Source of the DNA: an uncultured Calditrichaceae bacterium
Lineage (GTDB): Bacteria; Zhuqueibacterota; Zhuqueibacteria; Oceanimicrobiales; Oceanimicrobiaceae
Length of the DNA stretch: 64,000 bases
Reading direction: 5' to 3'
NCBI GenBank assembly: GCA_964455375.1
Contig: CAYVXE010000011.1
Coordinates: 2,255-66,254, forward strand
The notes under the pieces were generated by a model. It was not told where the DNA came from and ran no database searches. It worked only from the letters and a program-made list of their open reading frames with translations. Positions 5,345 to 50,619 of the stretch are shown piece after piece. A program made the position numbers and the translations under genes. The stretch's first letter is position 1. Every line of letters begins with the position of its first letter.

Positions 5345-6898
5345 TCAAGAACCTTTTCGTAACAAGAGAACCATTGTCATATCATCATTCTGTGGTGCGT
5401 TACCAAAATGTAAATTCACAGCTGCAATGATGTTTTCCATAAGCGCATCAGCAGAATAACCACAGTACCGTTGAACAATTTTCAGCAGGTTTTCATCACC
5501 AAACTCTTCCATCCGCTCATTCATTGCTTCGGAGATCCCATCTGAATAAATCAACAGTCGATCTCCCGGATTGACAGAGATTTCTTCTTTCTGGTAGGAC
5601 ACGTCTTCCTGCATGCCCAGCACAGGTCCATGAGTTTTCAGGGGGACAGGCTTTTTTTCCGGAGAAAAAATAAGCGGCAAGTTTTGTCCGGCGTTGGCAT
5701 AACACAGGGTATTTTTTTGGGTATCCAAAATTCCATAAAAAAGGGATACAAATGTTTTGGAGTCAATGCTACGAAATAGTAGTCTATTTGCCCTCTCCAA
5801 ACATTCATTGGCAGTTACATCAAAAGATGCTAGACTTCGAATTGTGGCTTGCAGGTTTGACATCACCAGAGCAGCCGCCAGTCCCTTGCCGCTTACATCT
5901 CCCAAGCCGATCGCCAGTCGATGATCATCCAAACGGATAAAATCATAATAATCTCCCCCAACATTTAAAGCGGGGATACTCATTCCGGCAATGTCGTACC
6001 CATCGATTTCGGGATTGGAGTTTGGCAGGAGATTTACTTGAATATTTCTTGCCATCCTCGCTTCTTCCAGCGACCTGATCCGGGCTTCCTCTGCCTTTTT
6101 GCGTCCGGTAATGTCGCGATAGATTGCATAAACTCCCATCTGTTTACCGTTATGAATAATAGGAGCCCCGATAATCCAGACATCAAAAAGAGTCCCGTCT
6201 TTACGTTTGCGTTTTGAATCATTGTCCGTTCTTTGGCCATGAATCACCATATATGAATTCGCAGCCGCATGCTCTTTGAACTCTTCTGAAGCGAGCAAAT
6301 CATTTATTGGTTGTCCGATTGCTTCCTCACGGGAATAGCCAAACATTCTTGTGAATTCATCATTGACATTAACCACAATATCGTTGTTGTCGTGCAATAC
6401 AATGGCCTCAGGAGCACTGTTGAACAACTTTTCAAGATAAGTTTTCTCAATGCGCAGTTCTTCCTCTGCTTTTATTCGTTCGGTAATATCCCGATAGATG
6501 GCATAGTCTCCCATCTGTTGACCTTCATGAACAATAGGAGCACAGAGAATTGAGACGTCAACGACAGTTCCATCCTTACGTTTGCGTTTTGAATCAACCT
6601 CTACTGTTTCCCGTTGAATCACCTTATGCGACAACATAGAAGCTTCATCCTGTAACTCTTCCGGAACGACCAACTCATTGATTGGTTCTCCTATAGCTTC
6701 CTCGCGAGAATAACCAAACATTCTTGTGAATTCTTCATTCACATCGACAATAATTTCATTGTCATCCTGCAATGAAATTGCCTCAGGAGCGCTATTGAAC
6801 AGCTTTTCGAAATAGGTTTTCTGGAGATAAAGTTCCTCCTCTGGTTTTTTAAGATTTTTTATACGTTTTTCTAATTCTTCATACGTTGGTTTACACAT
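5345..6898 (-). CDS. PAS-PAS-PP2C (SpoIIE/RsbU-like) serine phosphatase
   Basis: Two near-identical PAS blocks (LFNSAPEAI...FTRMFGYSREEAIG...DSKRKRKDGT...YAIYRDIT) precede a C-terminal PP2C/SpoIIE domain (GGDYYDF...GDVSGKGLAAALVMS...). Confidence 0.85.
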   Translation of the reverse strand: MCKPTYEELEKRIKNLKKPEEELYLQKTYFEKLFNSAPEAISLQDDNEIIVDVNEEFTRMFGYSREEAIGEPINELVVPEELQDEASMLSHKVIQRETVEVDSKRKRKDGTVVDVSILCAPIVHEGQQMGDYAIYRDITERIKAEEELRIEKTYLEKLFNSAPEAIVLHDNNDIVVNVNDEFTRMFGYSREEAIGQPINDLLASEEFKEHAAANSYMVIHGQRTDNDSKRKRKDGTLFDVWIIGAPIIHNGKQMGVYAIYRDITGRKKAEEARIRSLEEARMARNIQVNLLPNSNPEIDGYDIAGMSIPALNVGGDYYDFIRLDDHRLAIGLGDVSGKGLAAALVMSNLQATIRSLASFDVTANECLERANRLLFRSIDSKTFVSLFYGILDTQKNTLCYANAGQNLPLIFSPEKKPVPLKTHGPVLGMQEDVSYQKEEISVNPGDRLLIYSDGISEAMNERMEEFGDENLLKIVQRYCGYSADALMENIIAAVNLHFGNAPQNDDMTMVLLLRKGS

Positions 6899-7639: not shown

Positions 7640-8065
7640 AAACCATTCGACAGACATTTCAAAAAAAGAATTGAAGCCCTGGTTGAAATATATGTGGTGT
7701 ATTCCCCCAGCCGCCAATGCAGCTTGTCTGGGCGATGGAAGACATTCTTGAAGTTTACAGGCGACCTTATGACCCGAATAAACCTTTGGTCTGCATGGAT
7801 GAGACAACCAAGCAATCGACCAAAGGAATACGCTGTAGAATTCCTTCTAAACCTGGTAAATCTACTCGTGTTGATTATGATATATGAGCGCAATGGCGTC
7901 AGCAATCTGTCATGTTCTACGAGCCGTTTGGCAGCAAGCGCTATGTGTCGGTCACGGTGCGCCGAACCAAAGTTGATAGGGCCCATCAGATAAAAGAATT
8001 GTTGGATGTTCATTACACCAATGTAAAAAAAAAGTTGTTTTGGTAATGGATAATCTCAAATGCAA
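7640..8065 (+). mobile_element. IS630-family (Tc1/mariner DDE_3) transposase fragment, frameshifted
   Basis: The translation reads ILEVYRRPYDPNKPLVCMDE, DYDYERNGVSNL, FYEPFGSKRYVSVTVRRTKVD and LVMDNL in shifting frames. It corresponds to the central part of an IS630 transposase. N- and C-terminal parts are absent. Confidence 0.55.
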
Positions 8066-8654
8066 CTTTTTCGAATCTTATGTATTGTATAAAATAAACA
8101 CTTTGACTGACAAAAAAATACTAAACGAAATCAGAATAAATCCTCATAAATTTGAAATAGTTTATAATGCACATTATGAATCTATTTTTAATTACTGTTA
8201 CCGACGAACTAATAATTTTGATGCGTCATATGATATTACTGCTGAAGCATTCCTTAAAGCCTACTTAAATATCAGGAAATTTAGATGGAAAGGAATTCCT
8301 ATCAAGAGTTGGCTTTACCGAATTGCAACGAATGAACTAAAAATTTATTATCGATCTAAGCAATATAAGCCAAAACTTTTTAGTGAAATCCCCCATGATT
8401 CAAAGGATTTTACATCAATTGAGACCTTATTGATCGAAAAAAATAATGCACAACTTGAAATGGAAAAATATGAACAATTCCGTCAGGTTCAAAAAGCCAT
8501 AACGAAGTTACCGTTAAAATACCAGGAAGTGATTACTCTAAAATATTTTGAGAATCTAAAATTAAAGGAAATAAGTGTTGTTTTAAATAAAAAAGAAGGA
8601 ACAATAAAGTCGTTACTATCAAGGGCGATTGAAAAATTAAAAGGATCTTTATAG
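8040..8654 (+). CDS. ECF-type RNA polymerase sigma-70 factor (5' end chimeric with IS630 remnant)
   Basis: Region 2 reads ITAEAFLKAY...WLYRIATNE. Region 4 has a helix-turn-helix (KYQEVITLKYFENLKLKEISVVLNKKEGTIKSLLSRAIEKLK). The first roughly 8 codons (VMDNLKCN) read as a continuation of the IS630 ORF. The true start may lie between 8046 and about 8100. Confidence 0.7.
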   Translation: MVMDNLKCNFFESYVLYKINTLTDKKILNEIRINPHKFEIVYNAHYESIFNYCYRRTNNFDASYDITAEAFLKAYLNIRKFRWKGIPIKSWLYRIATNELKIYYRSKQYKPKLFSEIPHDSKDFTSIETLLIEKNNAQLEMEKYEQFRQVQKAITKLPLKYQEVITLKYFENLKLKEISVVLNKKEGTIKSLLSRAIEKLKGSL

Positions 8655-8687
8655 TGCAACTAAAATTGAATACTTGTATTTTAGCAT

Positions 8688-9170
8688 ATGATGAGAACAA
8701 AAAATAATCCAGGAGATAATTTTATGTTAAAAATGAAAGTCCCCACAGTTGATGTTTCTCACCACCAAAGTGAATTTAGAATTACGCTTTTTAACACAAA
8801 AAAATCTGCTGTTCTCGGTTTGATTTTTCTAATCCTCCCGTTACTCTTTTTGAGTGGTGTAGTTTTGAAACATTATTTACAGATTGATTTTGGAATATTT
8901 ACATCGGTTTATGAGTGGATTGGAAACATGGACCAGGAATATGGGGATGGTTCGCTGTTGAATTGGGTAATAAGATTTTTACTGTTATTTGGTCCCCTTC
9001 TTGCGATCGGAATAAATTTAATTTCCATTGTCTACATAAGACACGAACCAATATCAAAAGAGATTTTAATTTCAATAAAACTAAAATGGGTTAATCTGGT
9101 AATCATTTTTTCATGTTTTTTTATTTTTTTCATATTCTTTTCTTATTTAATTCTTGAAAATATAAATTAA
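8688..9170 (+). CDS. Membrane protein, candidate anti-sigma factor (no recognisable ZAS motif)
   Basis: 160-aa ORF with three predicted TM helices, lying 34 nt downstream of the ECF sigma gene. Very AT-rich. Confidence 0.4.
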   Translation: MMRTKNNPGDNFMLKMKVPTVDVSHHQSEFRITLFNTKKSAVLGLIFLILPLLFLSGVVLKHYLQIDFGIFTSVYEWIGNMDQEYGDGSLLNWVIRFLLLFGPLLAIGINLISIVYIRHEPISKEILISIKLKWVNLVIIFSCFFIFFIFFSYLILENIN

Positions 9171-9199
9171 ACTCACAATATTTTATTAATAATCTTTTT

Positions 9200-9715
9200 A
9201 TGGATTCAACCAACTACGGGAAACCCAATCCAAACGCACCAGGCCAACTTTCAACATTTGCTTTTCTTGTCGGGAAGTGGGCCTGTGAGGTTGCTATAAA
9301 ACAGGCAGATGGAAGCTCCTCCCGACTTCAAGCAACGTGGGAAGGACATTATATTCTCGACGGATACGTCATCGCAGATGAATACAGAATGGTTGATGCC
9401 TCTGGAAATCTATTGATGTTAGGAATGAATTTTCGGGCCTATGATTCGGAAACGAATCGTTGGAATATAAAGTGGCTTGAAGCTTTATCTGGCACGTGGT
9501 TAGAACTGGGTCCGCAAAAGCTTGGTGGCGTCACTATTTCCGACTCTTCAATTGAATACAAAGCCGAATACAAACCAGGAGAACTGCATCGAATAACGTT
9601 TTCAAATATAAACGAGGAGCATTTCACCTGGAGTGTCGACATCTCAACGGATAAAGGTCAAACCTGGAATGAATCGGTGATGACAATACAGGCCAAACGG
9701 GTTCAAAACCACTAA
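9200..9715 (+). CDS. Hypothetical protein (DUF1579/lipocalin-like, uncertain)
   Basis: 171-aa ORF rich in Trp and Gly beta-strand pattern (LVGKWACE..., TWEGHYILDG). Confidence 0.4.
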   Translation: MDSTNYGKPNPNAPGQLSTFAFLVGKWACEVAIKQADGSSSRLQATWEGHYILDGYVIADEYRMVDASGNLLMLGMNFRAYDSETNRWNIKWLEALSGTWLELGPQKLGGVTISDSSIEYKAEYKPGELHRITFSNINEEHFTWSVDISTDKGQTWNESVMTIQAKRVQNH

Positions 9716-9947: not shown

Positions 9948-12146
9948 ATGACATCCATCCTCCAAAAAACGAAATCATTTATCGATTCGCTATTCGACAA
10001 GAAATTCGATCCGGCCATCGTAAAACTCCCGCAAGTTAACGAAAACCATGAAAGCAACATTCCCGGCTTGTATATGATCGGTGAAGTTCGCGGCACCCCA
10101 CTGATCAAATTAGGCCTGAATCAGGGTAACAATTTAATTAACCAATTATTCGAGAATAAGCCATCAAATGGTTTACCCACCGATGTTCTTGATGTCCTCA
10201 TCGTCGGAGCCGGCGCCTCCGGAATCGGGGCAGCCAATCGCGCCCAGGAATTGGGGCTCAACTACATCGTCATTGAACAGGGACAACCGGCCAACCTCAT
10301 TCGCTCGTTCACCAAGGGCAAGCCGCTATTCATTGAACCGCTGGACGTCCCTTTGGAATCCACAATGTGGGCGGAGGAAAGCAGCAAGGAAGAGTTACTC
10401 AAACAATGGGACAAGCAAATTAAAGAGCGTGGCTTAAAAATCAACAGTTTCGAAGCTGTTTCAGACATTCAGCGTTCCTCCGACTATTTTAAGGTAACGA
10501 CCACCAAAGCAACCTACAAGACAAAATATGTTGTTTTAGCCATCGGTAAAGCCGGCAATCCACGCAAAGCCGGTGTGCCCGGCGAAAAGGAACATGCCGA
10601 AAAAATCGCTCACTTTTTAGCCGACCCGGATGAATTCAAAAACAAAAACATTTTGATTTATGGCGGCGGTGACGTTGCAGCAGAAGCAGCCATTACCCTT
10701 GCTGCAACCAATAACGTGACTTTGGTAACCATCGACCCGCAATTCATCTTTCCCAAAAAACGCAACGTGGACAAAATGCTCGATCTGCAAAAGCAGGAAA
10801 AACTTAACATTCATTTCAACAGCCATTTAAAGGAAGTGGGAAAGGATTTCGTAAAATTCGAAAAATACGGTCACGTTGAAGAAATAAAAAACAACCAGGT
10901 TTTTGAAATGATCGGCGCCGAACTGCCCATAAAATTCTTCAATAAGATTGGCATTAAAATGGAAGGCTCCTGGGATTTTAAGCGCTATCTGTTTCTAACG
11001 GCCATGTTTATCGTTTTCTATAGCGTCTACGCCATGAAAGCGCCGTGGTGGCCATTTAACCTGCAATTGTTCCAGGACTCCTCCGGACATATCATAAACG
11101 TAAAACAGTACCTCACCTTTAACTGGAATATTTTCGGATTCACCAAACACATTTCTCCGAGTTTCTGGTATGCAGCGCTGTACACTGCATTTATGACTTT
11201 TTTCGGGATGAAAGCCTACAAACGCTGGGGGGTCGGTTACAATGACAGCTACCAGAAAAAACGCTATATTTCACTCATCACCACGCAATGGACATTGGGA
11301 TTTCTCATTCCGGAATTTATTATGTGGTATGTGCACCATAAAGCCGGCCCCAGCCTTTTCTTAGGGAGTCCGGATTATTCCTGGAAAGCCTACGGGTTTG
11401 AATATGTCTGGCCGCTGCAGTTCCACCAATTCTTCTACGATATCAGTCTATTTTACATCGTCTGGGGATTACTGACGGCCTTCGTCATCATTCCGATCCT
11501 CTCCATTCATCACGGCAAACGTTACTGCACCTGGTTCTGTGGTTGCGGCGGGTTAGCTGAAACCTGGGGCGATCAATGGCGGCACAAAGCGCCAAAAGGC
11601 AGACGTTCCAAAGCCTGGGAATGGATGAACCGGGCAATCCTGATTTGGGCATTTGTCGCGACCATTTTAGTTGGCGGCAATATGCTTTTCGGAAAGCTGT
11701 ACTACAACGACATTTATCATTGGTTCGGATTTCTTTCACAGGCAGGGGAAGCATCGCGGGCGTGGTATTCCTACATTGCCGATTTCTGGCTCGTGGGCGT
11801 CATTCCCGTCACGCTCTATCCGTTTTTTGGCGGTAAAGTCTGGTGCCGTTACTGGTGCCCGCTGGCAAAATGGATGGAACTTTGGAGCCATCATCTCGGC
11901 AAGTTAGGCATCAACAGCAATGAAAAATGCATCACTTGCGGCGAATGCTCGCGGTTTTGCGAAGTCGGCATTGATGTCATGAGTTTTGCAAAAAATCAGC
12001 AGCGCTTTTCCAACAAAAATACGGCCTGCATTCACTGCGGTATCTGCATCACGGTTTGTCCCATGAGCGTGCTGTCGTTCCAGAAAAACGGGAAAATCAA
12101 AATAAACGAAGACGTTGCAGAGCGGGAGTACATTAAGGCTGCCTGA
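9948..12146 (+). CDS. FAD/NAD(P)-binding oxidoreductase fused to NapH/CcoG-like integral-membrane polyferredoxin
   Basis: The N-terminal part has two Rossmann motifs (LIVGAGASGIGAA and LIYGGGDVAAEAA). About 6 TM helices follow, containing C-x-W-x-C-P-like motifs (CTWFCGCGG and WCRYWCPLAKW). The C-terminus carries 2x CxxCxxCxxxCP 4Fe-4S motifs (CITCGECSRFCE and CIHCGICITVCP). Confidence 0.75.
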   Translation: MTSILQKTKSFIDSLFDKKFDPAIVKLPQVNENHESNIPGLYMIGEVRGTPLIKLGLNQGNNLINQLFENKPSNGLPTDVLDVLIVGAGASGIGAANRAQELGLNYIVIEQGQPANLIRSFTKGKPLFIEPLDVPLESTMWAEESSKEELLKQWDKQIKERGLKINSFEAVSDIQRSSDYFKVTTTKATYKTKYVVLAIGKAGNPRKAGVPGEKEHAEKIAHFLADPDEFKNKNILIYGGGDVAAEAAITLAATNNVTLVTIDPQFIFPKKRNVDKMLDLQKQEKLNIHFNSHLKEVGKDFVKFEKYGHVEEIKNNQVFEMIGAELPIKFFNKIGIKMEGSWDFKRYLFLTAMFIVFYSVYAMKAPWWPFNLQLFQDSSGHIINVKQYLTFNWNIFGFTKHISPSFWYAALYTAFMTFFGMKAYKRWGVGYNDSYQKKRYISLITTQWTLGFLIPEFIMWYVHHKAGPSLFLGSPDYSWKAYGFEYVWPLQFHQFFYDISLFYIVWGLLTAFVIIPILSIHHGKRYCTWFCGCGGLAETWGDQWRHKAPKGRRSKAWEWMNRAILIWAFVATILVGGNMLFGKLYYNDIYHWFGFLSQAGEASRAWYSYIADFWLVGVIPVTLYPFFGGKVWCRYWCPLAKWMELWSHHLGKLGINSNEKCITCGECSRFCEVGIDVMSFAKNQQRFSNKNTACIHCGICITVCPMSVLSFQKNGKIKINEDVAEREYIKAA

Positions 12147-12325: not shown

Positions 12326-14854
12326 CTACTTCACCTTCACCACCACCAGCGTCATGTCATCCGTTTGTGCTTCATCTCCCACAAACTGCCGAACCCGGTC
12401 AATAATAGATTCCCGCAAGGTGAAAGCTGAATCATAGCCGTTTTGTGAAATGAGTTTTTGCAAAATATCGAAATCGAATTCTTCATTCTGCGAATTTCTT
12501 GCTTCAACAATACCATCTGAATAAAAAAGAAATACGTCACCCGACTCAAATGCGATTACAGACTCTTCGAGTTCTCTTTTAAATACTCCCTGATCCTCCA
12601 AACCAATGCCAATGCCTCTGGGGACAATTTGCTGACAGGTTTTATTCTTTTTTGAAAAATAAATCAACGGTAAATGCCCGGCCCGTACAAATTTGAATTT
12701 TTTCGTATCTAAATCAAATGTTCCGCAGGTGAGCGTAATAAACGATTGTTCCTCAATATTGTTGAAAGCCACGGAATTCACTTCAGCCATGAGATCGGTT
12801 AAGCGGGTGTGAAATTTTGCGGCGGTCTGCAAAATTCCTTTTAGTTGCGACATATACAACGCCGCCGATGTGCCTTTACCGGACACATCGCCGACTACGA
12901 CACCAAAACAGCCATCCGGAAGGGTGATGTAATCATAGTAATCGCCGCCAACTTCCATGGCGGGTATAGAAATGCCGCTAACATCGAGACCGGCAATAAC
13001 CGGGTCTGATTGCGGCAACGAGCTAAGCTGTATTTTTCTCGCCACTTCGAGTTCTTTCTTCAATCGCTCCTGCTCTTTCAACTCTTCGGTCAACAGCGCA
13101 TTTTCCACAGAAATATTCAACTGATCGTTCAGCATTTCCAGAAGTTCGATATCCTCTTTATAAAAGGTTTCATCATTTTCTTTACTGCCAATGCTCACAA
13201 AGCCCATCACCTTCGATTTATTGATTAACGGAAGGACGATCTCCGTTCCCAGCACACGCCACTTTTCCTGTTCATTTTGAGTAAAATGGTTGAACTTATC
13301 CTGCAATAGAGAAAAATCCTGCAAGTAGGGTTTCGCCTGTAATATCTTTAAAAAACCATCATGCGTGTTAAAAGAAAATCCTTTTGATAATTGAATGCCC
13401 TGCACTGACCGCAACCTGAATGTAGTGCCATCAGACGTGGAGTAAAAAACAGCCACCGGATGGATGGCCATGGATTTCGAAAAAAAGGTGGACACTTCTT
13501 CAATTAATTTTTCTAAATCTACAACATTCACAAGTTGATGACTAAATTTTCGCACCGCCTCCCGGTAACTGTAGCGGTTTGGATAAAATCGATTTTCAAC
13601 AAAATTTTGAATTCGATTTTTAACCGGGTTAAATATTGCTGCGATTAGCAAGGTTGCCACAATCGTCAGAATCTGACTGCTGGAACCGGTAAAAAATAAA
13701 AACAACCTGCCGACACCGACCACGAGGAGAAAATACGCGGCAACGACAAAGCCGGATATGAGTGCAAATGCCAAACTGCGTTTAATGATAAAACGAACAT
13801 CCATGAAACGGTGTTTAATGATTGCATAGGCAAGCGTCATGGGCCAGAAAACCATCAAAAACAGGAAATACTCTGAGTACGGGATGACAAAATTAAAAAT
13901 ATTCTTAGGAATGAAATACAGTCCTAAAGGCAAACCAAGCGTCAGCATCGTTCCACGGTACATGATGCTCGCCTGGCCAGCCACATGAGGGTCTGTGGCC
14001 GTATGGCAGGAATGACCCAACACACTAAATGCAACAAAAAACTGCAGGCTAATCCATACGCCCCAACCGTATTGCAATACTTGCCCCCGCCACGGCAATT
14101 GATTCACATCTGCATAAATATAAACAAATATCAAAAGCAGAATTCCATAACAAAGAAACAAAAGAATGTTTTTGTGCTTTTTATAAAACCGATTTTTTTC
14201 AGGAAACAACAGGGTGAAATGTAAAAGCAATCCGGTAGCCATGGGTAAAAACATCAAGAATATCCATTCAAACCAGCCGGGAAGCAATCGAAGCAGCGCC
14301 TTTGAACCATAAGGGAAATTCCCCCACATTGCCAGCGCCCAGAACAACACCATCAAATAAAAAATATGGACTGTCTTATCCTGAGCTTTTTTGAGCAGAA
14401 CAAAAACACCGATTAAGATAAGGGTGTAACAAAAAACCACCCCCGGCAGAAGACCGGCAAAAAAACTACCGGTATAAATTTTTATGCGGCTTTTTGAAAT
14501 AAATGAGAAGTCGCGTACAACGTTCCTCCTTGAAACAACAATTTTTACCGGGTCCCCCACTTCAATGTCTTGAAAAGCACGGTATAATGACTTTTCATCC
14601 GTAATATCATAACGATTGAGTTTCAGTATCATATCACCCTCGCGGATGCCGACGAGATCCGCCGGTCCTTTGGGAACCACGTGGGTTATGACAACACGGT
14701 CTGCATCTTTCACTTTCTCGTAGGTAATCCCAACAACCGGATCATTTACCAAAAAGTAAATATCAGCCACGGTTGAAGACACAATATATACGAAAACAAA
14801 CAAGCCGAGCAATAAAAGAGAAGAAACTTTCCAAATTTGAATTGGTTTACTCAT
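12326..14854 (-). CDS. PDZ - multi-TM sensor - GAF - PP2C (SpoIIE-type) phosphatase
   Basis: A signal/TM segment is followed by a PDZ domain (HVVPKGPADLVGIREGDMILKLN). About 8 TM helices and a GAF-like region follow. The C-terminal PP2C domain reads GGDYYDY...VVVGDVSGKGTSAALYMS...FYSDGIVEA. Confidence 0.8.
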   Translation of the reverse strand: MSKPIQIWKVSSLLLLGLFVFVYIVSSTVADIYFLVNDPVVGITYEKVKDADRVVITHVVPKGPADLVGIREGDMILKLNRYDITDEKSLYRAFQDIEVGDPVKIVVSRRNVVRDFSFISKSRIKIYTGSFFAGLLPGVVFCYTLILIGVFVLLKKAQDKTVHIFYLMVLFWALAMWGNFPYGSKALLRLLPGWFEWIFLMFLPMATGLLLHFTLLFPEKNRFYKKHKNILLFLCYGILLLIFVYIYADVNQLPWRGQVLQYGWGVWISLQFFVAFSVLGHSCHTATDPHVAGQASIMYRGTMLTLGLPLGLYFIPKNIFNFVIPYSEYFLFLMVFWPMTLAYAIIKHRFMDVRFIIKRSLAFALISGFVVAAYFLLVVGVGRLFLFFTGSSSQILTIVATLLIAAIFNPVKNRIQNFVENRFYPNRYSYREAVRKFSHQLVNVVDLEKLIEEVSTFFSKSMAIHPVAVFYSTSDGTTFRLRSVQGIQLSKGFSFNTHDGFLKILQAKPYLQDFSLLQDKFNHFTQNEQEKWRVLGTEIVLPLINKSKVMGFVSIGSKENDETFYKEDIELLEMLNDQLNISVENALLTEELKEQERLKKELEVARKIQLSSLPQSDPVIAGLDVSGISIPAMEVGGDYYDYITLPDGCFGVVVGDVSGKGTSAALYMSQLKGILQTAAKFHTRLTDLMAEVNSVAFNNIEEQSFITLTCGTFDLDTKKFKFVRAGHLPLIYFSKKNKTCQQIVPRGIGIGLEDQGVFKRELEESVIAFESGDVFLFYSDGIVEARNSQNEEFDFDILQKLISQNGYDSAFTLRESIIDRVRQFVGDEAQTDDMTLVVVKVK

Positions 14855-14901: not shown

Positions 14902-15561
14902 CTAGGCAATCTGTCCGGACACAACCGGTTTCAGACAATTTTTTGCACATTGCCCAAAAAGGTGTCCCTGCACCACCAACCCCCAAAAATTTGTAAAAGG
15001 GGAGAAAAAACCTAGACCTGCAAACAGTAAAATAGCATTTAAAATCAAGGAAAAAATAATAATTGCCAGAAAGTGACCAAAACCATTTTTAATAATACGC
15101 AGTAGAGCAGAAATATCAAAAGCTGAAGCAAAATTGTCGGTCAGGGCAAACTGCAGCAGGCCAAAATTCGTAAAAAACATCAACAAAAATAACGTCATTA
15201 AAGACACCGACACGATGCTCATAACCATTTCAACTTGGGGAAAATACGCCTGGGTGCAAATACTTACAATCATTAATGCACATAAACCGCCGATAATAAC
15301 AAAATAAATGAGAAGAATGACCGCTCCCATAATTCCATCAATGAATAGTTTGCTCCAATGATGCCAATCCGGCAAACTTTTTTCTGTATCATGAATAACA
15401 TTTCGCATAATACCAATGTAGTATCCCAGGATAAAGAAACCGAAGATGAAAATAAGGCCGAAATAAAAACTGACCAGGATTAAAAGCCCGCCGATGGCCA
15501 TCTTTTTCAACCACTCCTCATCCTGAAATGCGAAAGACAGCGCTTCTGAATAATTCATCAT
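14902..15561 (-). CDS. Polytopic membrane protein (DUF4013-like)
   Basis: 219-aa ORF with 5-6 TM helices. It lies 47 nt upstream of the PP2C gene on the same strand. Confidence 0.45.
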   Translation of the reverse strand: MMNYSEALSFAFQDEEWLKKMAIGGLLILVSFYFGLIFIFGFFILGYYIGIMRNVIHDTEKSLPDWHHWSKLFIDGIMGAVILLIYFVIIGGLCALMIVSICTQAYFPQVEMVMSIVSVSLMTLFLLMFFTNFGLLQFALTDNFASAFDISALLRIIKNGFGHFLAIIIFSLILNAILLFAGLGFFSPFTNFWGLVVQGHLFGQCAKNCLKPVVSGQIA

Positions 15562-15843
15562 TTTCCCATTCGTAAGATTATTTTATAGTTTCGTTTGAAC
15601 CGCACTTTCATATACGAAATGCCGGAAAAATGTTTGCAAATAAAAGCTGTACCCAATAACAATTTAGTTATTCACGAACATAAAGTAAAGGACTGGCAGC
15701 AGATAGCCTGAAAATCCGGAGAACTTAAATTCGGCTTCGATAATTTTCAGCTACCGAAACCGATGAACCCAAGATTCGTAATTGGTCCTTTCGGTTTGCG
15801 CCTCGGTGACTTCCTCAAGTTAGTTCACTTGCTGTTTCAAAAA

Positions 15844-16890
15844 TTAATACCCGCCTTCCTCCGCTTGCAAATTCACTTTACCACGGAACATGTAAAACAA
15901 AAATGAAAAATATCCTATGGCCAGAATAATTCCGATAACCCACCAGACAATTCCGACGGCAAGTCCGTGTGCACCGGCTGCCGAATTATAGATGGTTAAG
16001 GAATATTGAGCTCCTGTGGAAGCGGGCAAAATAACCGGGAAAAGACCAAATGCCGTTGCTACGCCCATGCCAAAGATAAACAGACCGGATGAGAGAAACG
16101 CAGCGGTATCGTTTTGCTTTTTGTTAAATACCATCACACCCACAATACCGGCTACTCCGAGAATCGGAAATATCCACCCCCAGACATGAGCAAAATAATT
16201 GTTCCAGATTTCAGGATGAACGAACGATGCGGCGCCCAAAGCCATTGCCGACAGGACAACAACAGGCCATGAGACCAGAAAGGCAATGTTCCGTGCCCGC
16301 TCCTGAACGGCTCCCTCTGTTTTCATGGCAATGAAATTTGCTCCATGAACCAACAACGTTGTAAAAGCAACCAACCCCATGAGCACGGTAAACCAGTCGA
16401 GAATACCGGCTTCCGGCACAACGGTAAAGGTCGTCCAGAGTGGCTCAAAAAAATATCCCTCTGCATTCAAGGGAACCCCTCGTACAATATTGCCCAGGGC
16501 AGCACCAAAAAATATTGCCAACAAAATACTGGCCCCTGAAAAAACAACATCCCAGAGAGAACGCCACATGGGATGTTGAATATGACTCCGCAGTTCAATG
16601 CCAATTCCCCGTAGCATCAGCAGCCAGAGCACCATCATCAACGGCAGGTAGAAGCCGCTGAAACTCGATGCGTAAATCGCCGGGAAAGCAAAAAACAGCA
16701 CACCACCGGATGCCAGCAACCAGACTTCATTCCCATCCCAAACCGGACCGATTGCATTTAAAACAGTGCGCCGTTCTTCATCCGTTTTTGCCACCAGCAA
16801 ATGAATAATACCTGCACCCAAATCGAAACCATCTAATATGACGTATGTGGTCAACATAAGCGTCAAACCAATAAACCAAAAAATCTCCAT
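15844..16890 (-). CDS. cydB: Cytochrome bd ubiquinol oxidase subunit II
   Basis: 348 aa. The N-terminal motif LDGFDLGAGI...GPVWDGNEVWL is diagnostic of CydB. There are about 8 TM helices. Confidence 0.9.
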   Translation of the reverse strand: MEIFWFIGLTLMLTTYVILDGFDLGAGIIHLLVAKTDEERRTVLNAIGPVWDGNEVWLLASGGVLFFAFPAIYASSFSGFYLPLMMVLWLLMLRGIGIELRSHIQHPMWRSLWDVVFSGASILLAIFFGAALGNIVRGVPLNAEGYFFEPLWTTFTVVPEAGILDWFTVLMGLVAFTTLLVHGANFIAMKTEGAVQERARNIAFLVSWPVVVLSAMALGAASFVHPEIWNNYFAHVWGWIFPILGVAGIVGVMVFNKKQNDTAAFLSSGLFIFGMGVATAFGLFPVILPASTGAQYSLTIYNSAAGAHGLAVGIVWWVIGIILAIGYFSFLFYMFRGKVNLQAEEGGY

Positions 16891-16928
16891 TTTTTATCTC
16901 CAATATTTTTATTTCAAAATAAAACTGC

Positions 16929-18257
16929 TTATATTTTTTTCACTTCAGGTCCGTGATTGATCTCACGCGCGATTAAAAATACAAACAGGAGCCCGAGAAT
17001 TGTATACATGCCCATAAATCCAATCAGGGTGAACAAACTGTTGCCAGCGGAAACCATGTGGGAAAGTCCGTCTTTTGTTCTTAAAAGACCATATATCAGC
17101 CAGGGCTGGCGCCCTAACTCCACCGTCATCCAACCCGTTGTGTTGGCTATGTAGGGAAAAGGAAAACTCAACATAATAATCCACAACATCCAATTAGAAG
17201 AAAACAATTTTCGTTTCCACAACAAGAATGTCGCCAGCGCCATAATAGCGATAAACAAGGTTCCCAGCCCAACCATGATGTGGTAACTATAATAAAGCAG
17301 TGGGATGTTCGTGGGCCATTCATCTTTTGGAAAAGCGTCCAGACCTTTTACTTCTGCTTTCCAGCGGTAATGCGTCAAAAAACTTAACAGCTTCGGAATA
17401 TGCAGTGGATTATCAATTTTCAGTTTTTGCATATCCGGCTGACCGATCAAAACCAGATCAGCGCCGTCTTTTGTATTGAATAAACCTTCCATGGCCGCCA
17501 GCGTAGCCGGCTGGTATTTGACCACATTCTGCCCTTGCTGATCGCCTGTAGGAAACGCGGCCAATACGGAAGCAATCAAACCGGCGATGACGCCAACGCG
17601 CAAAAAGATTTTGCCGAACTCTTCATTTCGTTTGGCCAACACATAGAAAGCGCCTACGGCAGACATCACAAATGATCCGGTTATCGTCGCTCCGAGCATG
17701 TTGTGTATGTACTGCCAGCCGACCCAGGGATTTGTAAGCAATGCCCAAAAACTCGTTAATTGAACAGAACCACCTGCGCCGATTTCATACCCAACCGGAT
17801 GCTGCATCCACGCGTTGGTCGCAATTATAAAAAAACCGGATAACCAGGAACCCAGAAAAACCATGAAAGCAGCCACGAAATGCAATTTCGGCCCTAAACG
17901 TTTTTCACCGAAAAGAAAAAGTCCGAGAAAACTGGACTCCAGAAAAAAGGCGAAAACGCCTTCCATTGCAAGTGTCTGACCAATGACGCCACCGGCAAAA
18001 GCCGAGAATTTAGCCCAATTGGTGCCAAATTGAAATTCCATGGGAATGCCGGTCACAACACCAATCGCAAAATTAACGGCAAATATTTTTGCCCAAAAAC
18101 GCGCGCTCTGATTAAAGCGCTCATCTTTCCTTTTTAATGCAATCCCCTTGAGTGTAACGATGAGCAGACCCAACCCCATTGTCAATTGCGGAAACAGATA
18201 ATGAAACGTGATTGTGAACGCAAATTGAAGTCGTCCCGTTAAAAGTGCATCTTCCAT
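16929..18257 (-). CDS. cydA: Cytochrome bd ubiquinol oxidase subunit I (short Q-loop type)
   Basis: 442 aa. It reads FAFTITFHYLFPQLTMGL... and GWMTVELGRQPWLIYGLLRT near the C-terminus. It lies directly upstream of cydB with a 38-nt gap. Confidence 0.9.
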   Translation of the reverse strand: MEDALLTGRLQFAFTITFHYLFPQLTMGLGLLIVTLKGIALKRKDERFNQSARFWAKIFAVNFAIGVVTGIPMEFQFGTNWAKFSAFAGGVIGQTLAMEGVFAFFLESSFLGLFLFGEKRLGPKLHFVAAFMVFLGSWLSGFFIIATNAWMQHPVGYEIGAGGSVQLTSFWALLTNPWVGWQYIHNMLGATITGSFVMSAVGAFYVLAKRNEEFGKIFLRVGVIAGLIASVLAAFPTGDQQGQNVVKYQPATLAAMEGLFNTKDGADLVLIGQPDMQKLKIDNPLHIPKLLSFLTHYRWKAEVKGLDAFPKDEWPTNIPLLYYSYHIMVGLGTLFIAIMALATFLLWKRKLFSSNWMLWIIMLSFPFPYIANTTGWMTVELGRQPWLIYGLLRTKDGLSHMVSAGNSLFTLIGFMGMYTILGLLFVFLIAREINHGPEVKKI

Positions 18258-18551
18258 TAAGATAACCCCTTTCTATATTAATTTTTAAAAAATAGTTTTT
18301 TAGAATGATTATATTAATTTGATGCGATAATAATATTTTCGATGCAAGGATTAATGAGAGAGACCATAGATTCCAAAAGGGGGCACTCATCAGATTTGCC
18401 ATTTCGAGTTTGGAAATTATTTGTCATTTAGGATCACGAGTGTCCGGTTAAGCGATAGATAGTTTTACGTAAGGTCTTTAAAAGACAGTAGTCAAACCTC
18501 TCGTTGTGCAAGCCTGAAGTTGTTTTTATCCTCTGCGCGTTGGACTGAGTC

Positions 18552-18648
18552 CCTCCCTTTGGCCAAAGGGAGGATAGGAGGGATTCGAAAAAGCAAATGC
18601 TGCAACTGGCCTCAAATCCTCCCTGTCCCTCCTTTTCGAAAGGAGGGA
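18552..18648. repeat. Pair of related perfect palindromic hairpins built from CCTCC/GGAGG arms in the cydAB upstream region
   Basis: CCTCCCTTTGG-CCAAAGGGAGG spans 18552-18573, a 22-bp perfect palindrome. TCCCTCCTTT-tcg-AAAGGAGGGA spans 18626-18648, a 10-bp stem with a 3-nt loop. The two share arm sequence. Confidence 0.5.
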
Positions 18649-18891
18649 ACTTTCTAAGCTGTTGTTCGATTTTATCTGACAAATTCTTTAACCGGACACT
18701 CATGATTTAGGATTTAAGTTTTAAGAGTGCAGGTTCGCGACGCCGTGCTACACTCAAAGGGACAAGATAAAGATGAATCCTCATTAAGTTGACGGGCACT
18801 GTCTGGTAACTGACAAACAAACTCCAATTTTATCATTGATAAATTATGGAAAATTAAATATTTTGGCAACAACTTTATTTTAGCAATTATC

Positions 18892-20019
18892 TTGGATAAG
18901 TCCATGAACAAAACATCTGACGTTGTTATTATTGGTGCAGGAATCATCGGGAGTTCCATTGCTTACAGACTTGCGAGCAAGGGACAGAACGTTGCGGTCA
19001 TCGATAAAGGCCATCCCGGTAGAGAAGCCACCTGGGCAGCGGCAGGAATGCTGGCACCACACACCGAGATTGCCCATAGCGTTCCCGATGTTCTGCTCAA
19101 CCTATTTGAAAAAAGTTATGATCTTTTTCCTGAATTCATTGAAGAAATCAGAGACGCCTCCGGATTGAAAATTGGTTACCAAACGAAGGGAAGTATTTTA
19201 ACCGCAAGTGACTTTCAGGAGGCAAAACTACTTTCCGGTCTGTTCGAGAAACTCGCGACGAGAGGCGTAAAAGTTGAAGAATTGGGAACACATGAATTGC
19301 AAAAAACGGAACCTGAGTTGGCTCATTCCGTAGAAACTGCTTTATTTTTACCTGAAGAACATTACGTGAACAATCGCGAACTCCTTCGGGCAGTCGTAAA
19401 AGCCGGACAAAATAAAGGCGTCACCTTTATCAACGATACCCCAGTAACCGGTTTCGATTTTGATAGAAAACACGTGCAGGCCATCCATCTGCCAGATAGA
19501 GATCTTTTTGCTGAAACATACATCAATTGTGCCGGCAGTTGGGCAGGACTGATCGACGCAACAAATGCAATTAAAATTCCGGTTCGTCCCATTCGCGGGC
19601 AAATTATTCAACTGCAACTCAACCCACAAAAATTAAACCACCTGATTCATTCATCCTCCGTTTACCTGGTACCCTGGCCGGATGGACGCACACTTGTAGG
19701 CGCTACCATGGAAAACGTGGGTTTTGACAAAACAAATACGGCCGGCGGATTCCGACATTTAATAGATGCGGCGCTTAACCTCATCCCGTCATTGCAGCAG
19801 GCGCAAGTGAAAGATTTTTGGGCCGGTTTGCGCCCGGACACACCGGATAATTTACCGCTTCTCGGCAAAACATCGTTTGACAACTATTTCATCGCTGCCG
19901 GTCATTTCCGCAACGGCATTTTGCTGACACCCATCACGGCGAAACTGATGTCCGAACTGATTTTTACCGGGAAACCGAGTATTTGTCTCGACCCATTTGA
20001 CCCCTTGCGGTTCAAGTAA
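18892..20019 (+). CDS. FAD-dependent oxidoreductase of the DAO family (glycine oxidase ThiO-like)
   Basis: An N-terminal GxGxxG motif (VVIIGAGIIGSSIAY) and ATWAAAGML motif are present. The length (375 aa) and a C-terminal HFRNGILL pattern are typical of ThiO/D-amino-acid oxidase. Confidence 0.7.
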   Translation: MDKSMNKTSDVVIIGAGIIGSSIAYRLASKGQNVAVIDKGHPGREATWAAAGMLAPHTEIAHSVPDVLLNLFEKSYDLFPEFIEEIRDASGLKIGYQTKGSILTASDFQEAKLLSGLFEKLATRGVKVEELGTHELQKTEPELAHSVETALFLPEEHYVNNRELLRAVVKAGQNKGVTFINDTPVTGFDFDRKHVQAIHLPDRDLFAETYINCAGSWAGLIDATNAIKIPVRPIRGQIIQLQLNPQKLNHLIHSSSVYLVPWPDGRTLVGATMENVGFDKTNTAGGFRHLIDAALNLIPSLQQAQVKDFWAGLRPDTPDNLPLLGKTSFDNYFIAAGHFRNGILLTPITAKLMSELIFTGKPSICLDPFDPLRFK

Positions 20020-31237: not shown

Positions 31238-31285
31238 AGAATGTAAATTGTTTCCTTTTTCTTTCGACGACCTAAACAGGATGTT

Positions 31286-44489: not shown

Positions 44490-44665
44490 GTATTATTAGT
44501 CTCCGAATCAGGCAGTATTAAAATAATTCCTACTTTTTTTCTAAATAAGTTATACTGTAAGCGTATGATTTCATACAAAGTGATAATCTCTCGTTTTCAA
44601 CATAGTTATGTTTTACCGTAAGTTGACACTCTGCGTTCTACTTGAGAAGCTGTTCACACTAGGGG

Positions 44666-47268: not shown

Positions 47269-47292
47269 TTCATCTCCATTATGCTTTGCTGG

Positions 47293-49719: not shown

Positions 49720-49731
49720 TGCGATTCACTT

Positions 49732-50604: not shown

Positions 50605-50619
50605 TTTTCTCTCTTATGT

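What the first reader, a model, noticed from the sequence alone, without database searches (positions are those of the whole stretch)
9948..12146. Single-polypeptide fusion of an NAD(P)H/FAD oxidoreductase to a NapH/CcoG-like membrane polyferredoxin, next to cydAB
The 732-aa ORF has three parts. The first is two Rossmann GxGxxG motifs, the FAD and NAD(P) sites of a pyridine-nucleotide-disulfide-oxidoreductase-like module. The second is a polytopic membrane domain carrying CxWFCGCGG and WCRYWCPLAKW motifs, resembling the C-x-x-x-CP-x-G motifs of NapH/CcoG/RdxA. The third is a C-terminal 2x[4Fe-4S] ferredoxin. NapH/CcoG-type proteins normally receive electrons from the quinol pool or partner subunits. 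A covalently attached flavoprotein would make a self-contained NAD(P)H-to-membrane or periplasm electron conduit. The very N-terminus (NIPGLYMIGEVRG) also looks like the C-terminal FAD-ribityl motif (x-PG-x-[FY]-A-x-G-[DE]) of this oxidoreductase family, yet it sits before the first Rossmann motif. That would imply a circular permutation.
Basis: partly seen in the sequence, partly recalled or inferred. Interest (0 to 1): 0.62.

Follow-up and report, generated by a model that had tools for sequence, protein, structure and literature searches.

The report
Permuted flavoprotein fused to NapH-like membrane protein
This gene encodes one polypeptide joining a circularly permuted NAD(P)H/FAD enzyme to a six-helix, iron-sulfur membrane module of the NapH type; the family is widespread and, as far as I could find, unstudied, and it most likely passes electrons from NAD(P)H to the membrane quinone pool.

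Summary
ORF 9948-12146 (+) encodes 732 aa with three parts: a TrxR/YpdA-like FAD + NAD(P)H module (res 21-343), a polytopic membrane domain with two Cys motifs matching Pfam Fer4_5 and the NapH/MauN model, and a C-terminal 2x[4Fe-4S] ferredoxin.

The proposed circular permutation is supported by sequence tests. A profile of the N-terminal 62 residues alone hits only two-dinucleotide-binding flavoproteins in the PDB. It always hits at their C-proximal GD FAD motif. Moving the segment behind res 341 lengthens and raises every TrxR/YpdA match.

The flavoprotein part has no cysteine, so it is not a disulfide reductase. All 13 Cys, all in the C-terminal half, are invariant in 55 homologues. Topology is N-in/C-in with six helices. 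Conservation is concentrated on the cytoplasmic face.

The family occurs at 458 loci among species-representative genomes of many phyla, with no conserved neighbours. The cydAB proximity is coincidental. Two-gene versions exist: stand-alone membrane subunits lie directly behind a canonical ferredoxin-reductase-like flavoprotein gene.

Best reading, which is inference: a self-contained NAD(P)H -> FAD -> Fe-S -> quinone oxidoreductase acting at the cytoplasmic face. No characterised member was found.

The parts
9948..12146 (+). Whole ORF: 732 aa plus stop. Apparently monocistronic, with a 232-nt upstream gap and a convergent gene downstream.
   Evidence: Full-length homologues.
9948..10007 (+). 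Res 1-20: poorly conserved N-terminal helix. No signal peptide.
   Evidence: AF2 helix 2-15. Mean conservation 0.36.
10008..10178 (+). Res 21-77: the permuted FAD 'GD-motif' strand plus helix (NIPGLYMIGEVRGTPLIKLGLNQG). In canonical relatives this segment lies after the NAD(P)H domain.
   Evidence: A profile of this segment alone hits only the C-proximal GD region of GR, TryR, LipDH, TrxR and FNR (best E 2.8e-6). De-permutation extends the HMM matches. pLDDT is 86-91. Seven residues are invariant.
10179..10547 (+). Res 78-200: first part of the FAD-binding domain, with Rossmann motif GAGASG (87-92) and E110 at the end of beta2. Ser90 replaces the YpdA active-site Cys.
10548..10907 (+). Res 201-320: NAD(P)H-binding domain, with GGGDVA (239-244) and nearly invariant D263 after beta2.
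   Evidence: Pyr_redox hit at 235-300. Alignment to YpdA. Conservation.
10908..10976 (+). Res 321-343: last retained strands of the FAD domain (VFEMIGAELPIKFFNKIGIKME). They lead directly into TM1 at the point where canonical enzymes continue to the GD strand.
   Evidence: The YpdA/TrxR alignments end at res 339-341. AF2 secondary structure.
10977..11234 (+). Res 344-429: family-specific TM1, a periplasmic beta-hairpin loop, and TM2. No Pfam family matches.
11247..11912 (+). Res 434-655: NapH-like four-helix core (TM3-TM6) carrying the two cytoplasmic Cys motifs.
   Evidence: TIGR02163 NapH/MauN at 507-712 and NF007013 NapH. Fer4_5 twice. Topology.
11514..11588 (+). Res 523-547: Cys motif 1, GKRYCTWFCGCGGLAETWGDQWRH (C527, C531, C533). 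This is the most conserved stretch of the protein and it is cytoplasmic.
   Evidence: 23 of 36 residues of the enclosing cytoplasmic loop (res 523-558) are invariant. Fer4_5 scores 21 bits. The same motif occurs in the split subunits.
11829..11873 (+). Res 628-642: Cys motif 2, GGKVWCRYWCPLAKW (C633, C637). Canonical CX3CP, cytoplasmic.
11913..12083 (+). Res 656-712: 2x[4Fe-4S] ferredoxin domain (C661/664/667/671 and C694/697/700/704).
   Evidence: Fer4_7, Fer4_21 and Fer4_10. PDB polyferredoxin, NuoI and PsaC hits. All 8 Cys are invariant.

Best explanation
The gene encodes a self-contained, membrane-anchored NAD(P)H dehydrogenase belonging to a widespread family with no characterised member that I could find.

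Shown by the analyses:
- A cytoplasmic TrxR/YpdA-like FAD + NAD(P)H module is circularly permuted. Its GD-motif strand and helix come first, and the chain leaves the FAD domain straight into TM1.
- This module has no cysteine, so it cannot do dithiol chemistry on its own.
- It is followed by six transmembrane helices. The last four form the NapH/NosR/RdhC-type core with two cytoplasmic Cys motifs, five invariant Cys in all.
- A cytoplasmic 2x[4Fe-4S] ferredoxin domain ends the protein.

Inferred mechanism: NAD(P)H donates a hydride to FAD. FAD passes single electrons to the two [4Fe-4S] clusters, as TrxR-type ferredoxin reductases do with free ferredoxin. The electrons then go via the membrane-proximal Cys site to a quinone bound in the NapH-like helix bundle near the cytoplasmic face. 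This would be NapH's quinol-dehydrogenase reaction run in the quinone-reducing direction. NADH may be the preferred donor, because Asp263 replaces the Arg/Gly of NADPH-dependent YpdA.

The enzyme would be a non-pumping functional analogue of NDH-2 that uses Fe-S centres. The permutation probably exists to place the polypeptide exit of the flavoprotein at the membrane.
For: - Domain assignments.
- Permutation: the N-terminal segment profile hits only the C-proximal GD motif of canonical flavoproteins. In the native protein, res 29-88 match GR 293-354. The de-permuted construct extends the YpdA HMM match from 1-263 to 1-289, gaining 9 bits over native and 12 over a shuffled control. It extends the TrxR match from 2-249 to 2-277, and PDB TrxR alignments to about residue 300. 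The permutation is kept in relatives at 32-36% identity.
- No Cys in res 1-526, and Ser replaces the YpdA Cys.
- All 13 Cys are invariant.
- Topology is N-in/C-in. Cytoplasmic loops carry 5, 8 and 4 K+R against 2, 2 and 2 in periplasmic loops. AF2 gives six long helices with mean pLDDT 81.
- Conservation is 0.80-0.88 in the cytoplasmic Cys loops and ferredoxin, against 0.23-0.56 in periplasmic loops.
- There are no conserved neighbours in 80 genome loci plus 3 contigs, which fits a self-sufficient enzyme.
- Independent gene-fusion evidence: stand-alone membrane subunits with the same CSWxCGCGG motif lie 4-10 nt downstream of a canonical ferredoxin-NAD+ reductase-type flavoprotein gene. This held in 3 of 3 informative families.
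- The literature describes NapH as the menaquinol-dehydrogenase membrane module shared with NosR and RdhC (PMC5928378; PMC9012536).
Against: - No biochemical data exist for any member, and I found no paper on the family.
- The acceptor is not identified. No quinone-site motif is known for NapH-type modules, and the cofactor role of the CX3CP motifs is unresolved in the literature: dithiol or Fe-S.
- I could not read model coordinates, so FAD-to-cluster distances and the packing of the N-terminal segment are not measured. Only secondary structure and pLDDT are available.
- The ferredoxin part of both AF2 models is poorly predicted, with pLDDT 35-60.
- Some relatives (P0142, P0159) lack the NAD(P)H domain altogether, so NAD(P)H is not the universal donor in the wider superfamily.
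- The NADH preference rests on one residue.
Confidence: 0.5

Rival explanations
1. NAD(P)H-driven reductase of a cytoplasmic-face metal ion or small molecule. It would work like CcoG, a NapH-superfamily membrane protein with two [4Fe-4S] clusters that reduces Cu(II) for cbb3 oxidase assembly, but with its own built-in electron donor. The invariant loop HGKRYCTWxCGCGGLAETxGDxWRH would be the substrate or metal site.
For: The most conserved element is a cytoplasmic Cys/His-rich loop with an extra Cys (CX3CGC) compared with NapH. All redox parts face the cytoplasm. From my own knowledge (Marckmann et al. 2019 PNAS, not read here), CcoG-type proteins lack an identified physiological electron donor. 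One relative has bolA directly downstream.
Against: No FixG_C/Ig-like domain is present, and Fer4_18 scores only E 0.007. The best membrane-domain models are NapH/MauN, not CcoG. There are no metal-homeostasis or oxidase-assembly neighbours in 89 loci. Six conserved helices with invariant polar and aromatic residues (Y361, K364, Y408, Y412, Q436, R439, Q447) are more than an anchor would need.
Confidence: 0.15
2. Transmembrane electron export, one of the first reader's options. NAD(P)H electrons cross the membrane through the NapH/NosR-like module to a periplasmic acceptor, as proposed for NosR, PceC and other NapH-like systems.
For: NosR, PceC and many NapH-like proteins are linked to extracytosolic redox partners (PMC8238504; PMC5928378). 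The family has an extra periplasmic beta-hairpin loop, res 366-403.
Against: No periplasmic FMN-binding domain is present, and no periplasmic Cys or His is invariant. The periplasmic loops are the least conserved parts, at 0.23-0.56. No gene for a periplasmic partner is conserved nearby. No cofactor is predicted that could bridge the bilayer.
Confidence: 0.1
3. Thiol/disulfide chemistry. The CX3C motifs would form a redox-active disulfide that sits against the flavin, acting in trans like the CxxC of TrxR. It would relay reducing power to a membrane or lipid-linked disulfide substrate, with the [4Fe-4S] clusters assisting as in ferredoxin:thioredoxin reductase or HdrB.
For: The closest flavoprotein relatives are disulfide reductases (YpdA/Bdr, TrxR). 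The flavoprotein has lost its own Cys, while five invariant Cys sit in adjacent cytoplasmic loops. The literature leaves open a dithiol role for CX3CP, since NosR had only about 8 Fe.
Against: TrxR-fold enzymes without Cys are known as ferredoxin/flavodoxin reductases, and such PDB hits appear here (8c16, 6gas, 3lzw). The split versions pair the membrane subunit with ferredoxin-reductase-type flavoproteins, not disulfide reductases. No thioredoxin-like partner is conserved nearby.
Confidence: 0.1

Closest known systems
[quoted passage not shown]
   Same: Four-helix membrane core with two cytoplasmic Cys motifs, each matching Fer4_5, followed by a cytoplasmic 2x[4Fe-4S] ferredoxin domain. TIGR02163 aligns to res 507-712 at E 2e-18.
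   Different: It scores 67 bits against a cut-off of 213. There are two extra N-terminal helices. The first motif is CX3CGC rather than CX3CP. There is no nap operon and no NapG partner. A covalently attached NAD(P)H flavoprotein is present, which implies the opposite electron direction.
YpdA/Bdr bacillithiol disulfide reductase (PDB 7a76, 7a7b) and low-Mr thioredoxin reductases
   Same: Best sequence and fold match of res 82-340 (E 1e-40 and 8e-27; Foldseek E 1e-20). Same FAD and NAD(P)H Rossmann domains.
   Different: The order is circularly permuted, with the GD segment first. There is no Cys at all; YpdA Cys14 corresponds to Ser90, and there is no CxxC. It scores 139 bits against a cut-off of 340. 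It is membrane-tethered. Asp replaces the NADPH-binding Arg/Gly position.
TrxR-type ferredoxin/flavodoxin:NAD(P)+ oxidoreductases (e.g. Bacillus FNR1/2, YumC; PDB 6gas, 8c16, 3lzw)
   Same: TrxR fold without redox cysteines, exchanging electrons between NAD(P)H/FAD and an Fe-S protein. This is the likely working analogy for the FAD -> ferredoxin-domain step (hits).
   Different: In those enzymes the ferredoxin is a separate soluble protein, the order is canonical, and a C-terminal extension covers the flavin. Here the ferredoxin is in the same chain, attached to a membrane module.
NosR/NirI and RdhC/PceC
   Same: They share the membrane module of four helices plus two CX3CP motifs. NosR also has the C-terminal 2x[4Fe-4S]. 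JGI names several homologues NosR/NirI.
   Different: They carry a periplasmic, covalently flavinylated FMN domain and sit in nos or rdh operons. This protein has a cytoplasmic FAD/NAD(P)H domain instead, and no operon.
Type II NADH dehydrogenase (NDH-2)
   Same: A single-polypeptide, two-dinucleotide-binding-domain flavoprotein at the cytoplasmic membrane face that would catalyse the same overall reaction, NADH -> quinone, without pumping.
   Different: NDH-2 has no Fe-S clusters and no integral membrane domain, and it reduces quinone directly at the flavin. It belongs to a different subfamily with canonical order.

Membership tests
NapH / NapH-MauN family | Score at or above the curated cut-off of TIGR02163 (213 bits) or NF007013 (234 bits) | tested here: not met
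   67.0 bits and 44.8 bits. The alignment covers model positions 62-254 of 255.
NapH / NapH-MauN family | Four TM helices with two cytoplasmic CX3CP motifs | tested here: inconclusive
   The four-helix core is present (TM3-TM6), and both motifs are cytoplasmic and hit Fer4_5. However, motif 1 is CX3CGC with no Pro, and two extra helices precede the core.
NapH / NapH-MauN family | C-terminal 2x[4Fe-4S] ferredoxin motifs | tested here: met
   CX2CX2CX3C occurs twice, and all 8 Cys are invariant.
NapH / NapH-MauN family | nap (napG/napA) or mau operon context | tested here: not met
   Neighbours are an ECF sigma factor, a DUF1579 protein and a SpoIIE phosphatase. No conserved neighbour was found in 89 loci.
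YpdA/Bdr bacillithiol disulfide reductase | TIGR04018 score of at least 339.9 bits over the full 316-position model | tested here: not met
   139 bits over model positions 1-264 only. The de-permuted construct reaches 152 bits over positions 1-289.
YpdA/Bdr bacillithiol disulfide reductase | Conserved active-site Cys inside the first GxGxxG motif (GGGPCG) | tested here: not met
   The aligned motif is GAGASG, with Ser90. There is no Cys anywhere in res 1-526. That this Cys is the catalytic residue is from my own knowledge.
Low-Mr thioredoxin reductase | CxxC redox disulfide in the NADPH domain, and TIGR01292 score of at least 343 bits | tested here: not met
   No Cys is present. The score is 82.6 bits.
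NosR/NirI | Periplasmic FMN-binding (flavinylated) domain N-terminal to the membrane module | tested here: not met
   No FMN_bind hit among 35 Pfam families. The N-terminus is a cytoplasmic FAD/NAD(P)H module with no signal peptide.
CcoG/RdxA/FixG | Fer4_18 plus a C-terminal FixG_C Ig-like domain | tested here: not met
   Fer4_18 scores only E 0.007 (17 bits against a cut-off of 27). FixG_C was not among the Pfam hits shown. The protein ends 20 residues after the ferredoxin.
Two-dinucleotide-binding-domain flavoprotein superfamily (Pyr_redox_2/3) | FAD Rossmann GxGxxG, NAD(P)H Rossmann GxGxxG/A, and GD-type FAD motif | tested here: met
   Pyr_redox_3 scores 135 bits and Pyr_redox_2 scores 88 bits, both above cut-off. 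All three motifs are present, but the GD-type motif (GE here) is permuted to the N-terminus.
The uncharacterised family itself (NCBI name: 'NAD(P)-binding domain-containing protein', about 700-790 aa) | Full-length collinear similarity including the permuted N-terminal segment, HGKR[YF]CTW and WCRYWCPL motifs, and the ferredoxin | tested here: met
   428 homologues. 55 were aligned at 46-81% identity over 95-100% of the length. 458 loci were found in species-representative genomes.

The most novel reading that the evidence does not exclude
The family is a previously unrecognised class of respiratory NAD(P)H:quinone oxidoreductase. It would be a single polypeptide, Fe-S-dependent, built from a circularly permuted TrxR-fold flavoprotein and a NapH-type quinone module running in reverse. 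It is present in hundreds of species of Planctomycetota, KSB1, Latescibacterota, Gemmatimonadota, Acidobacteriota, Myxococcota and anammox bacteria. A more speculative extension is that the single FAD could bifurcate electrons from NADH between quinone (via the Cys site) and a low-potential acceptor (via the [4Fe-4S] pair), as FixABCX does with several subunits.
Probability: 0.4. Interest if true: 0.72.

Novelty: new variant of a known kind. Interest (0 to 1): 0.58.

Why it matters
NapH, NosR, RdhC and CcoG-type membrane Fe-S proteins are widespread, yet they lack any solved structure I could find. They also lack an agreed role for their CX3CP motifs and, in several cases, a known electron donor. 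A natural fusion, and matching two-gene operons, that wire this module to an NAD(P)H flavoprotein give a defined, assayable donor. One 732-aa protein could therefore be used to test what the module does and what the Cys motifs bind.

If it reduces quinone, it adds a fourth architectural solution for NADH:quinone oxidoreduction, beside complex I, Nqr and NDH-2. It would also change respiratory-chain reconstructions for many uncultured phyla, where the gene is currently labelled only 'NAD(P)-binding domain-containing protein' or mislabelled NosR or thioredoxin reductase.

The conserved circular permutation of a classic two-Rossmann flavoprotein fold is also a clean case for studying how permutation enables domain fusion.

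Tried and rejected
1. cydAB linkage. tblastn of the window's CydA, CydB, DUF4013, DUF1579 and orf160 proteins against 89 related loci found nothing. Only sporadic, non-adjacent SpoIIE and ECF-sigma hits appeared. Rejected as a functional context.
2. Conserved-neighbour search. ORFs from 83 loci were clustered by all-vs-all BLASTP. The only recurrent clusters were antisense artefact ORFs inside the high-GC target gene and generic Ser/Thr kinases.
4. Foldseek of the full model returned only canonical TrxR/YpdA chains covering about 270 columns. Being sequential, it cannot show the permuted segment.
5. Six literature searches for a characterised member or a reported permutation found none. The library is open-access only, so absence is not proof.
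6. Disulfide-reductase function of the flavoprotein alone was rejected, because there is no Cys in res 1-526.
7. Rfam and tRNA scans of the window, and promoter/terminator scans around the gene, gave nothing informative.
8. I could not access model coordinates.
Full report
**1. The observation**

The ORF at 9948-12146 (+) is real. It is 732 aa with an ATG start. It has a 232-nt upstream intergenic region and a convergent gene downstream. Homologues of 728-737 aa align over 98-100% of its length, which confirms the start.
- GAGASG at 87-92 and GGGDVA at 239-244.
- CTWFCGCGG at 527-535 and WCRYWCPLAKW at 632-642.
- Two CX2CX2CX3C ferredoxin motifs at 661-671 and 694-704.
- NIPGLYMIGEVRG at 37-49.

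**2. Domain assignment**

Pfam gives Pyr_redox_3 at 84-338 (E 4e-39), Pyr_redox_2, Fer4_5, and Fer4_7/Fer4_21 at 658-707. NCBIfam gives three relevant matches:
- YpdA (TIGR04018) at 82-341, covering only model positions 1-264 of 316.
- TrxR, model positions 2-249 of 300.
- NapH/MauN (TIGR02163) at 507-712, model positions 62-254 of 255, E 2e-18.

All of these score far below the family cut-offs. Scanned separately, each Cys motif with its preceding helix matches Fer4_5: res 506-547 at 21 bits and res 613-655 at 26 bits. Res 341-500 match no Pfam family.

The best PDB sequence and fold matches of the flavoprotein part are the bacillithiol disulfide reductases 7a76 and 7a7b, then TrxRs and TrxR-type FNRs. 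The membrane part has no solved relative. This holds both for a profile search (ferredoxin-domain hits only) and for Foldseek (nothing below E 0.4).

**3. The circular permutation**

Three sequence tests agree.
- *Native protein.* Res 29-88 weakly match glutathione reductase 293-354, the GD FAD-motif region.
- *De-permuted construct.* I built a sequence with res 78-341 followed by res 20-77. The YpdA HMM match grows from positions 1-263 (142.5 bits) to 1-289 (151.9 bits), while a shuffled-segment control gives 140.3 bits. The TrxR match grows from 2-249 to 2-277. The lipoamide dehydrogenase and GR matches now run to model positions 331-333. PDB TrxR alignments now run to about residue 300.
- *N-terminal profile alone.* A 63-position profile built only from the N-terminal segment of 25 homologues was searched against all PDB sequences. 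It returns exclusively two-dinucleotide-binding flavoproteins, always at their C-proximal GD motif. Examples are human GR 315-361 (E 3e-6), trypanothione reductase 310-357, lipoamide dehydrogenase 302-345, TrxR 265-303 and FNR 271-294.

The AF2 model (55-sequence alignment, mean pLDDT 81, pTM 0.72) gives a strand at 41-43 and a helix at 53-68 with pLDDT 86-91. That is the strand-helix expected for this element. The segment has 7 invariant residues in the family. It is retained before the first GxGxxG in relatives at only 32-36% identity. The permutation is therefore old and selected.

Where canonical enzymes continue from '...GI.(I/M)(D/E)' to the GD strand, this chain goes directly into TM1. 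I could not read model coordinates, so the packing against FAD is inferred, not measured.

**4. What the flavoprotein is not**

Res 1-526 contain no cysteine. The Cys inside YpdA's GGGPCG motif aligns to Ser90, and there is no TrxR-like CxxC. It therefore cannot be a disulfide reductase on its own. It resembles the Cys-less TrxR-type ferredoxin reductases, which are among the PDB hits.

After the NAD(P)H beta2 strand, the nearly invariant Asp263 stands where NADPH-dependent YpdA has Arg/Gly. This suggests, weakly, a preference for NADH.

**5. Membrane domain and topology**

Hydropathy and AF2 agree on six helices, at about 345-365, 404-422, 441-461, 499-519, 561-581 and 608-628. The cofactor-binding N-terminus has no signal peptide, so it is cytoplasmic. 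The positive-inside rule fits N-in/C-in: cytoplasmic loops carry 5, 8 and 4 K+R, and periplasmic loops carry 2, 2 and 2. Both Cys motifs and the ferredoxin domain are thus cytoplasmic, as established for NapH.

All 13 Cys are invariant in 55 homologues. Mean conservation by region is as follows:

| Region | Mean conservation |
|---|---|
| Cys-motif-1 loop (23 of 36 residues invariant) | 0.88 |
| Cys-motif-2 region | 0.80 |
| Ferredoxin domain | 0.83 |
| Three periplasmic loops | 0.35, 0.56, 0.23 |

No periplasmic Cys or His is invariant. The chemistry therefore happens at the cytoplasmic face or within the bilayer.

**6. Distribution and context**

The full-length architecture is found in 428 clusters. 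It occurs at 458 loci among 185,579 species-representative genomes. The phyla and lineages include:
- KSB1, which holds the closest relatives at 75-77% identity and is the probable source of the window.
- Calditrichaceae, Phycisphaerae and other Planctomycetota, including Brocadiaceae and Anammoxibacter.
- Acidobacteriota, Latescibacterota, Gemmatimonadota, Myxococcota, Cloacimonadota, Krumholzibacteriia and Eiseniibacteriota.

Neighbour analysis covered 80 genome loci and three long contigs. It found no conserved partner. None of 89 loci has cydA or cydB within about 6 kb. In the window, cydBA lie 3.7 kb away on the other strand, behind a SpoIIE-PDZ-GAF gene and a DUF4013 gene. The cydAB proximity is coincidental.

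**7. Split versions**

An exhaustive profile search with the membrane half gave 184 representatives at E below 1e-30. They show several architectures:
- Fused forms of about 670-840 aa.
- Forms of about 580-620 aa that keep the permuted segment and first FAD Rossmann but have lost the NAD(P)H domain (P0142, P0159).
- A form with a C-terminal DUF547 (P0191).
- Stand-alone subunits of 330-406 aa.

Three stand-alone families with enough flanking DNA (P0175, P0220, P0227) were examined. Each lies 4-10 nt from, or overlapping, an upstream flavoprotein gene. That flavoprotein is a canonical, non-permuted member of the ferredoxin-NAD+ reductase / NirB / PadH type. It has its GD motif in the usual late position, for example LPDVYAIGD. 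These membrane subunits keep the family motif GKxWYCSWxCGCG[GA]LA.

The membrane module has therefore been coupled at least twice to different NAD(P)H flavoproteins whose known job is to reduce Fe-S proteins. This is strong support for the pathway NAD(P)H -> FAD -> [4Fe-4S].

**8. Mechanism**

*Shown:*
- The cofactor-binding modules, their order and their sidedness.
- The invariance of the Cys ligands.
- The self-sufficiency of the gene.
- The flavoprotein/membrane-module partnership.

*Inferred:*
- Electrons flow NAD(P)H -> FAD -> 2x[4Fe-4S] -> five-Cys site -> quinone in the NapH-type helix bundle.

This would make a non-pumping NAD(P)H:quinone oxidoreductase (confidence about 0.5). NapH is described as the menaquinol-oxidising module. 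With a low-potential donor attached, the same module would run towards quinone reduction.

Rivals:
- A CcoG-like metal or small-molecule reductase at the cytoplasmic face (0.15).
- Transmembrane export to a periplasmic acceptor (0.10, disfavoured by the conservation pattern and the lack of a periplasmic cofactor site).
- Dithiol/disulfide relay chemistry using the CX3C motifs (0.10). The literature leaves the motifs' cofactor role open.

**9. Comparison with known families**

The protein is a relative of NapH, YpdA, TrxR, NosR and CcoG, but a member of none. It fails their score cut-offs, lacks their catalytic Cys or periplasmic FMN domain, and lacks their operon contexts (see the membership table). 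It belongs to a coherent family that NCBI labels 'NAD(P)-binding domain-containing protein'. JGI labels members variously as NosR/NirI regulator, thioredoxin reductase/polyferredoxin, or YpdA. Six literature searches found no characterised member and no report of the permutation. The library covers open-access papers only.

**10. Verdict**

- The cydAB context should be dropped, and the periplasmic destination is unlikely.
- It is a new variant built from known kinds of module. It is already present in databases but, as far as I could find, unstudied.
- Interest is moderate to high for bioenergetics and for protein-fold evolution. The function rests on inference, and simple biochemistry could settle it.

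Noticed in passing
P0142 (582 aa), P0159 (616 aa); alignment A3: Relatives of the family keep the permuted N-terminal GD segment and the first FAD Rossmann, but the whole NAD(P)H-binding domain is deleted. They would therefore need a different electron donor, or the FAD domain is only structural.
   Followed up: partly
L084:3438-6125, L085:631-2960, L086:2712-5221, L087:1504-4013: Two-gene operons in which a canonical ferredoxin-reductase-like flavoprotein gene overlaps, or lies 4-10 nt before, a stand-alone membrane Fe-S subunit with the CSWxCGCGG motif.
   Followed up: yes
P0191 (680 aa); P0183 (626 aa): Other architectures of the same membrane module. One has a C-terminal DUF547 domain. One has an unassigned 270-aa N-terminus that starts with a hydrophobic stretch.
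   Followed up: no
L003:10192-10413 (same genome as L079): A bolA gene lies 38 nt downstream of the homologue in one deltaproteobacterial MAG. This was seen in that genome only.
   Followed up: no
window 8040-9715 (+): An ECF-type sigma factor (8040-8654), a 160-aa ORF without a Pfam hit (8688-9170) and a DUF1579-like protein (9200-9715) lie co-directionally just upstream of the target gene. This arrangement is not conserved in relatives.
   Followed up: partly
window 5345-6898 (-) and 12326-14854 (-): Two large SpoIIE/PP2C phosphatases with sensor domains (2x PAS; PDZ + GAF) flank the region. A Ser/Thr kinase with PD40/WD40 repeats lies at 751-3426.
   Followed up: no
window 14902-18257 (-): DUF4013, cydB and cydA lie in one direction, looking like a cytochrome bd operon with a DUF4013 membrane protein downstream. 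Small ORFs of 81-93 aa lie upstream of cydA at 18121-18959.
   Followed up: no
window 42129-52920 (-): Three CarboxypepD_reg / Plug / TonB-dependent-receptor-type outer-membrane genes are interleaved with a 570-aa ORF (44666-46378) that has no Pfam family.
   Followed up: no
window 28175-33606 (-): A complete RND efflux operon: OEP outer-membrane factor, HlyD-type adaptor and AcrB-type pump.
   Followed up: no
window 1-64000: There is no tRNA gene and no Rfam family at gathering threshold in the whole 64 kb.
   Followed up: yes
L003, L011, L012, L038, L053, L070, L083 and others (target gene, minus strand): Long antisense ORFs of 780-1600 aa run through the high-GC homologues of the target gene. 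A naive ORF caller picked these instead of the true gene. They are an artefact to watch for in annotation.
   Followed up: yes
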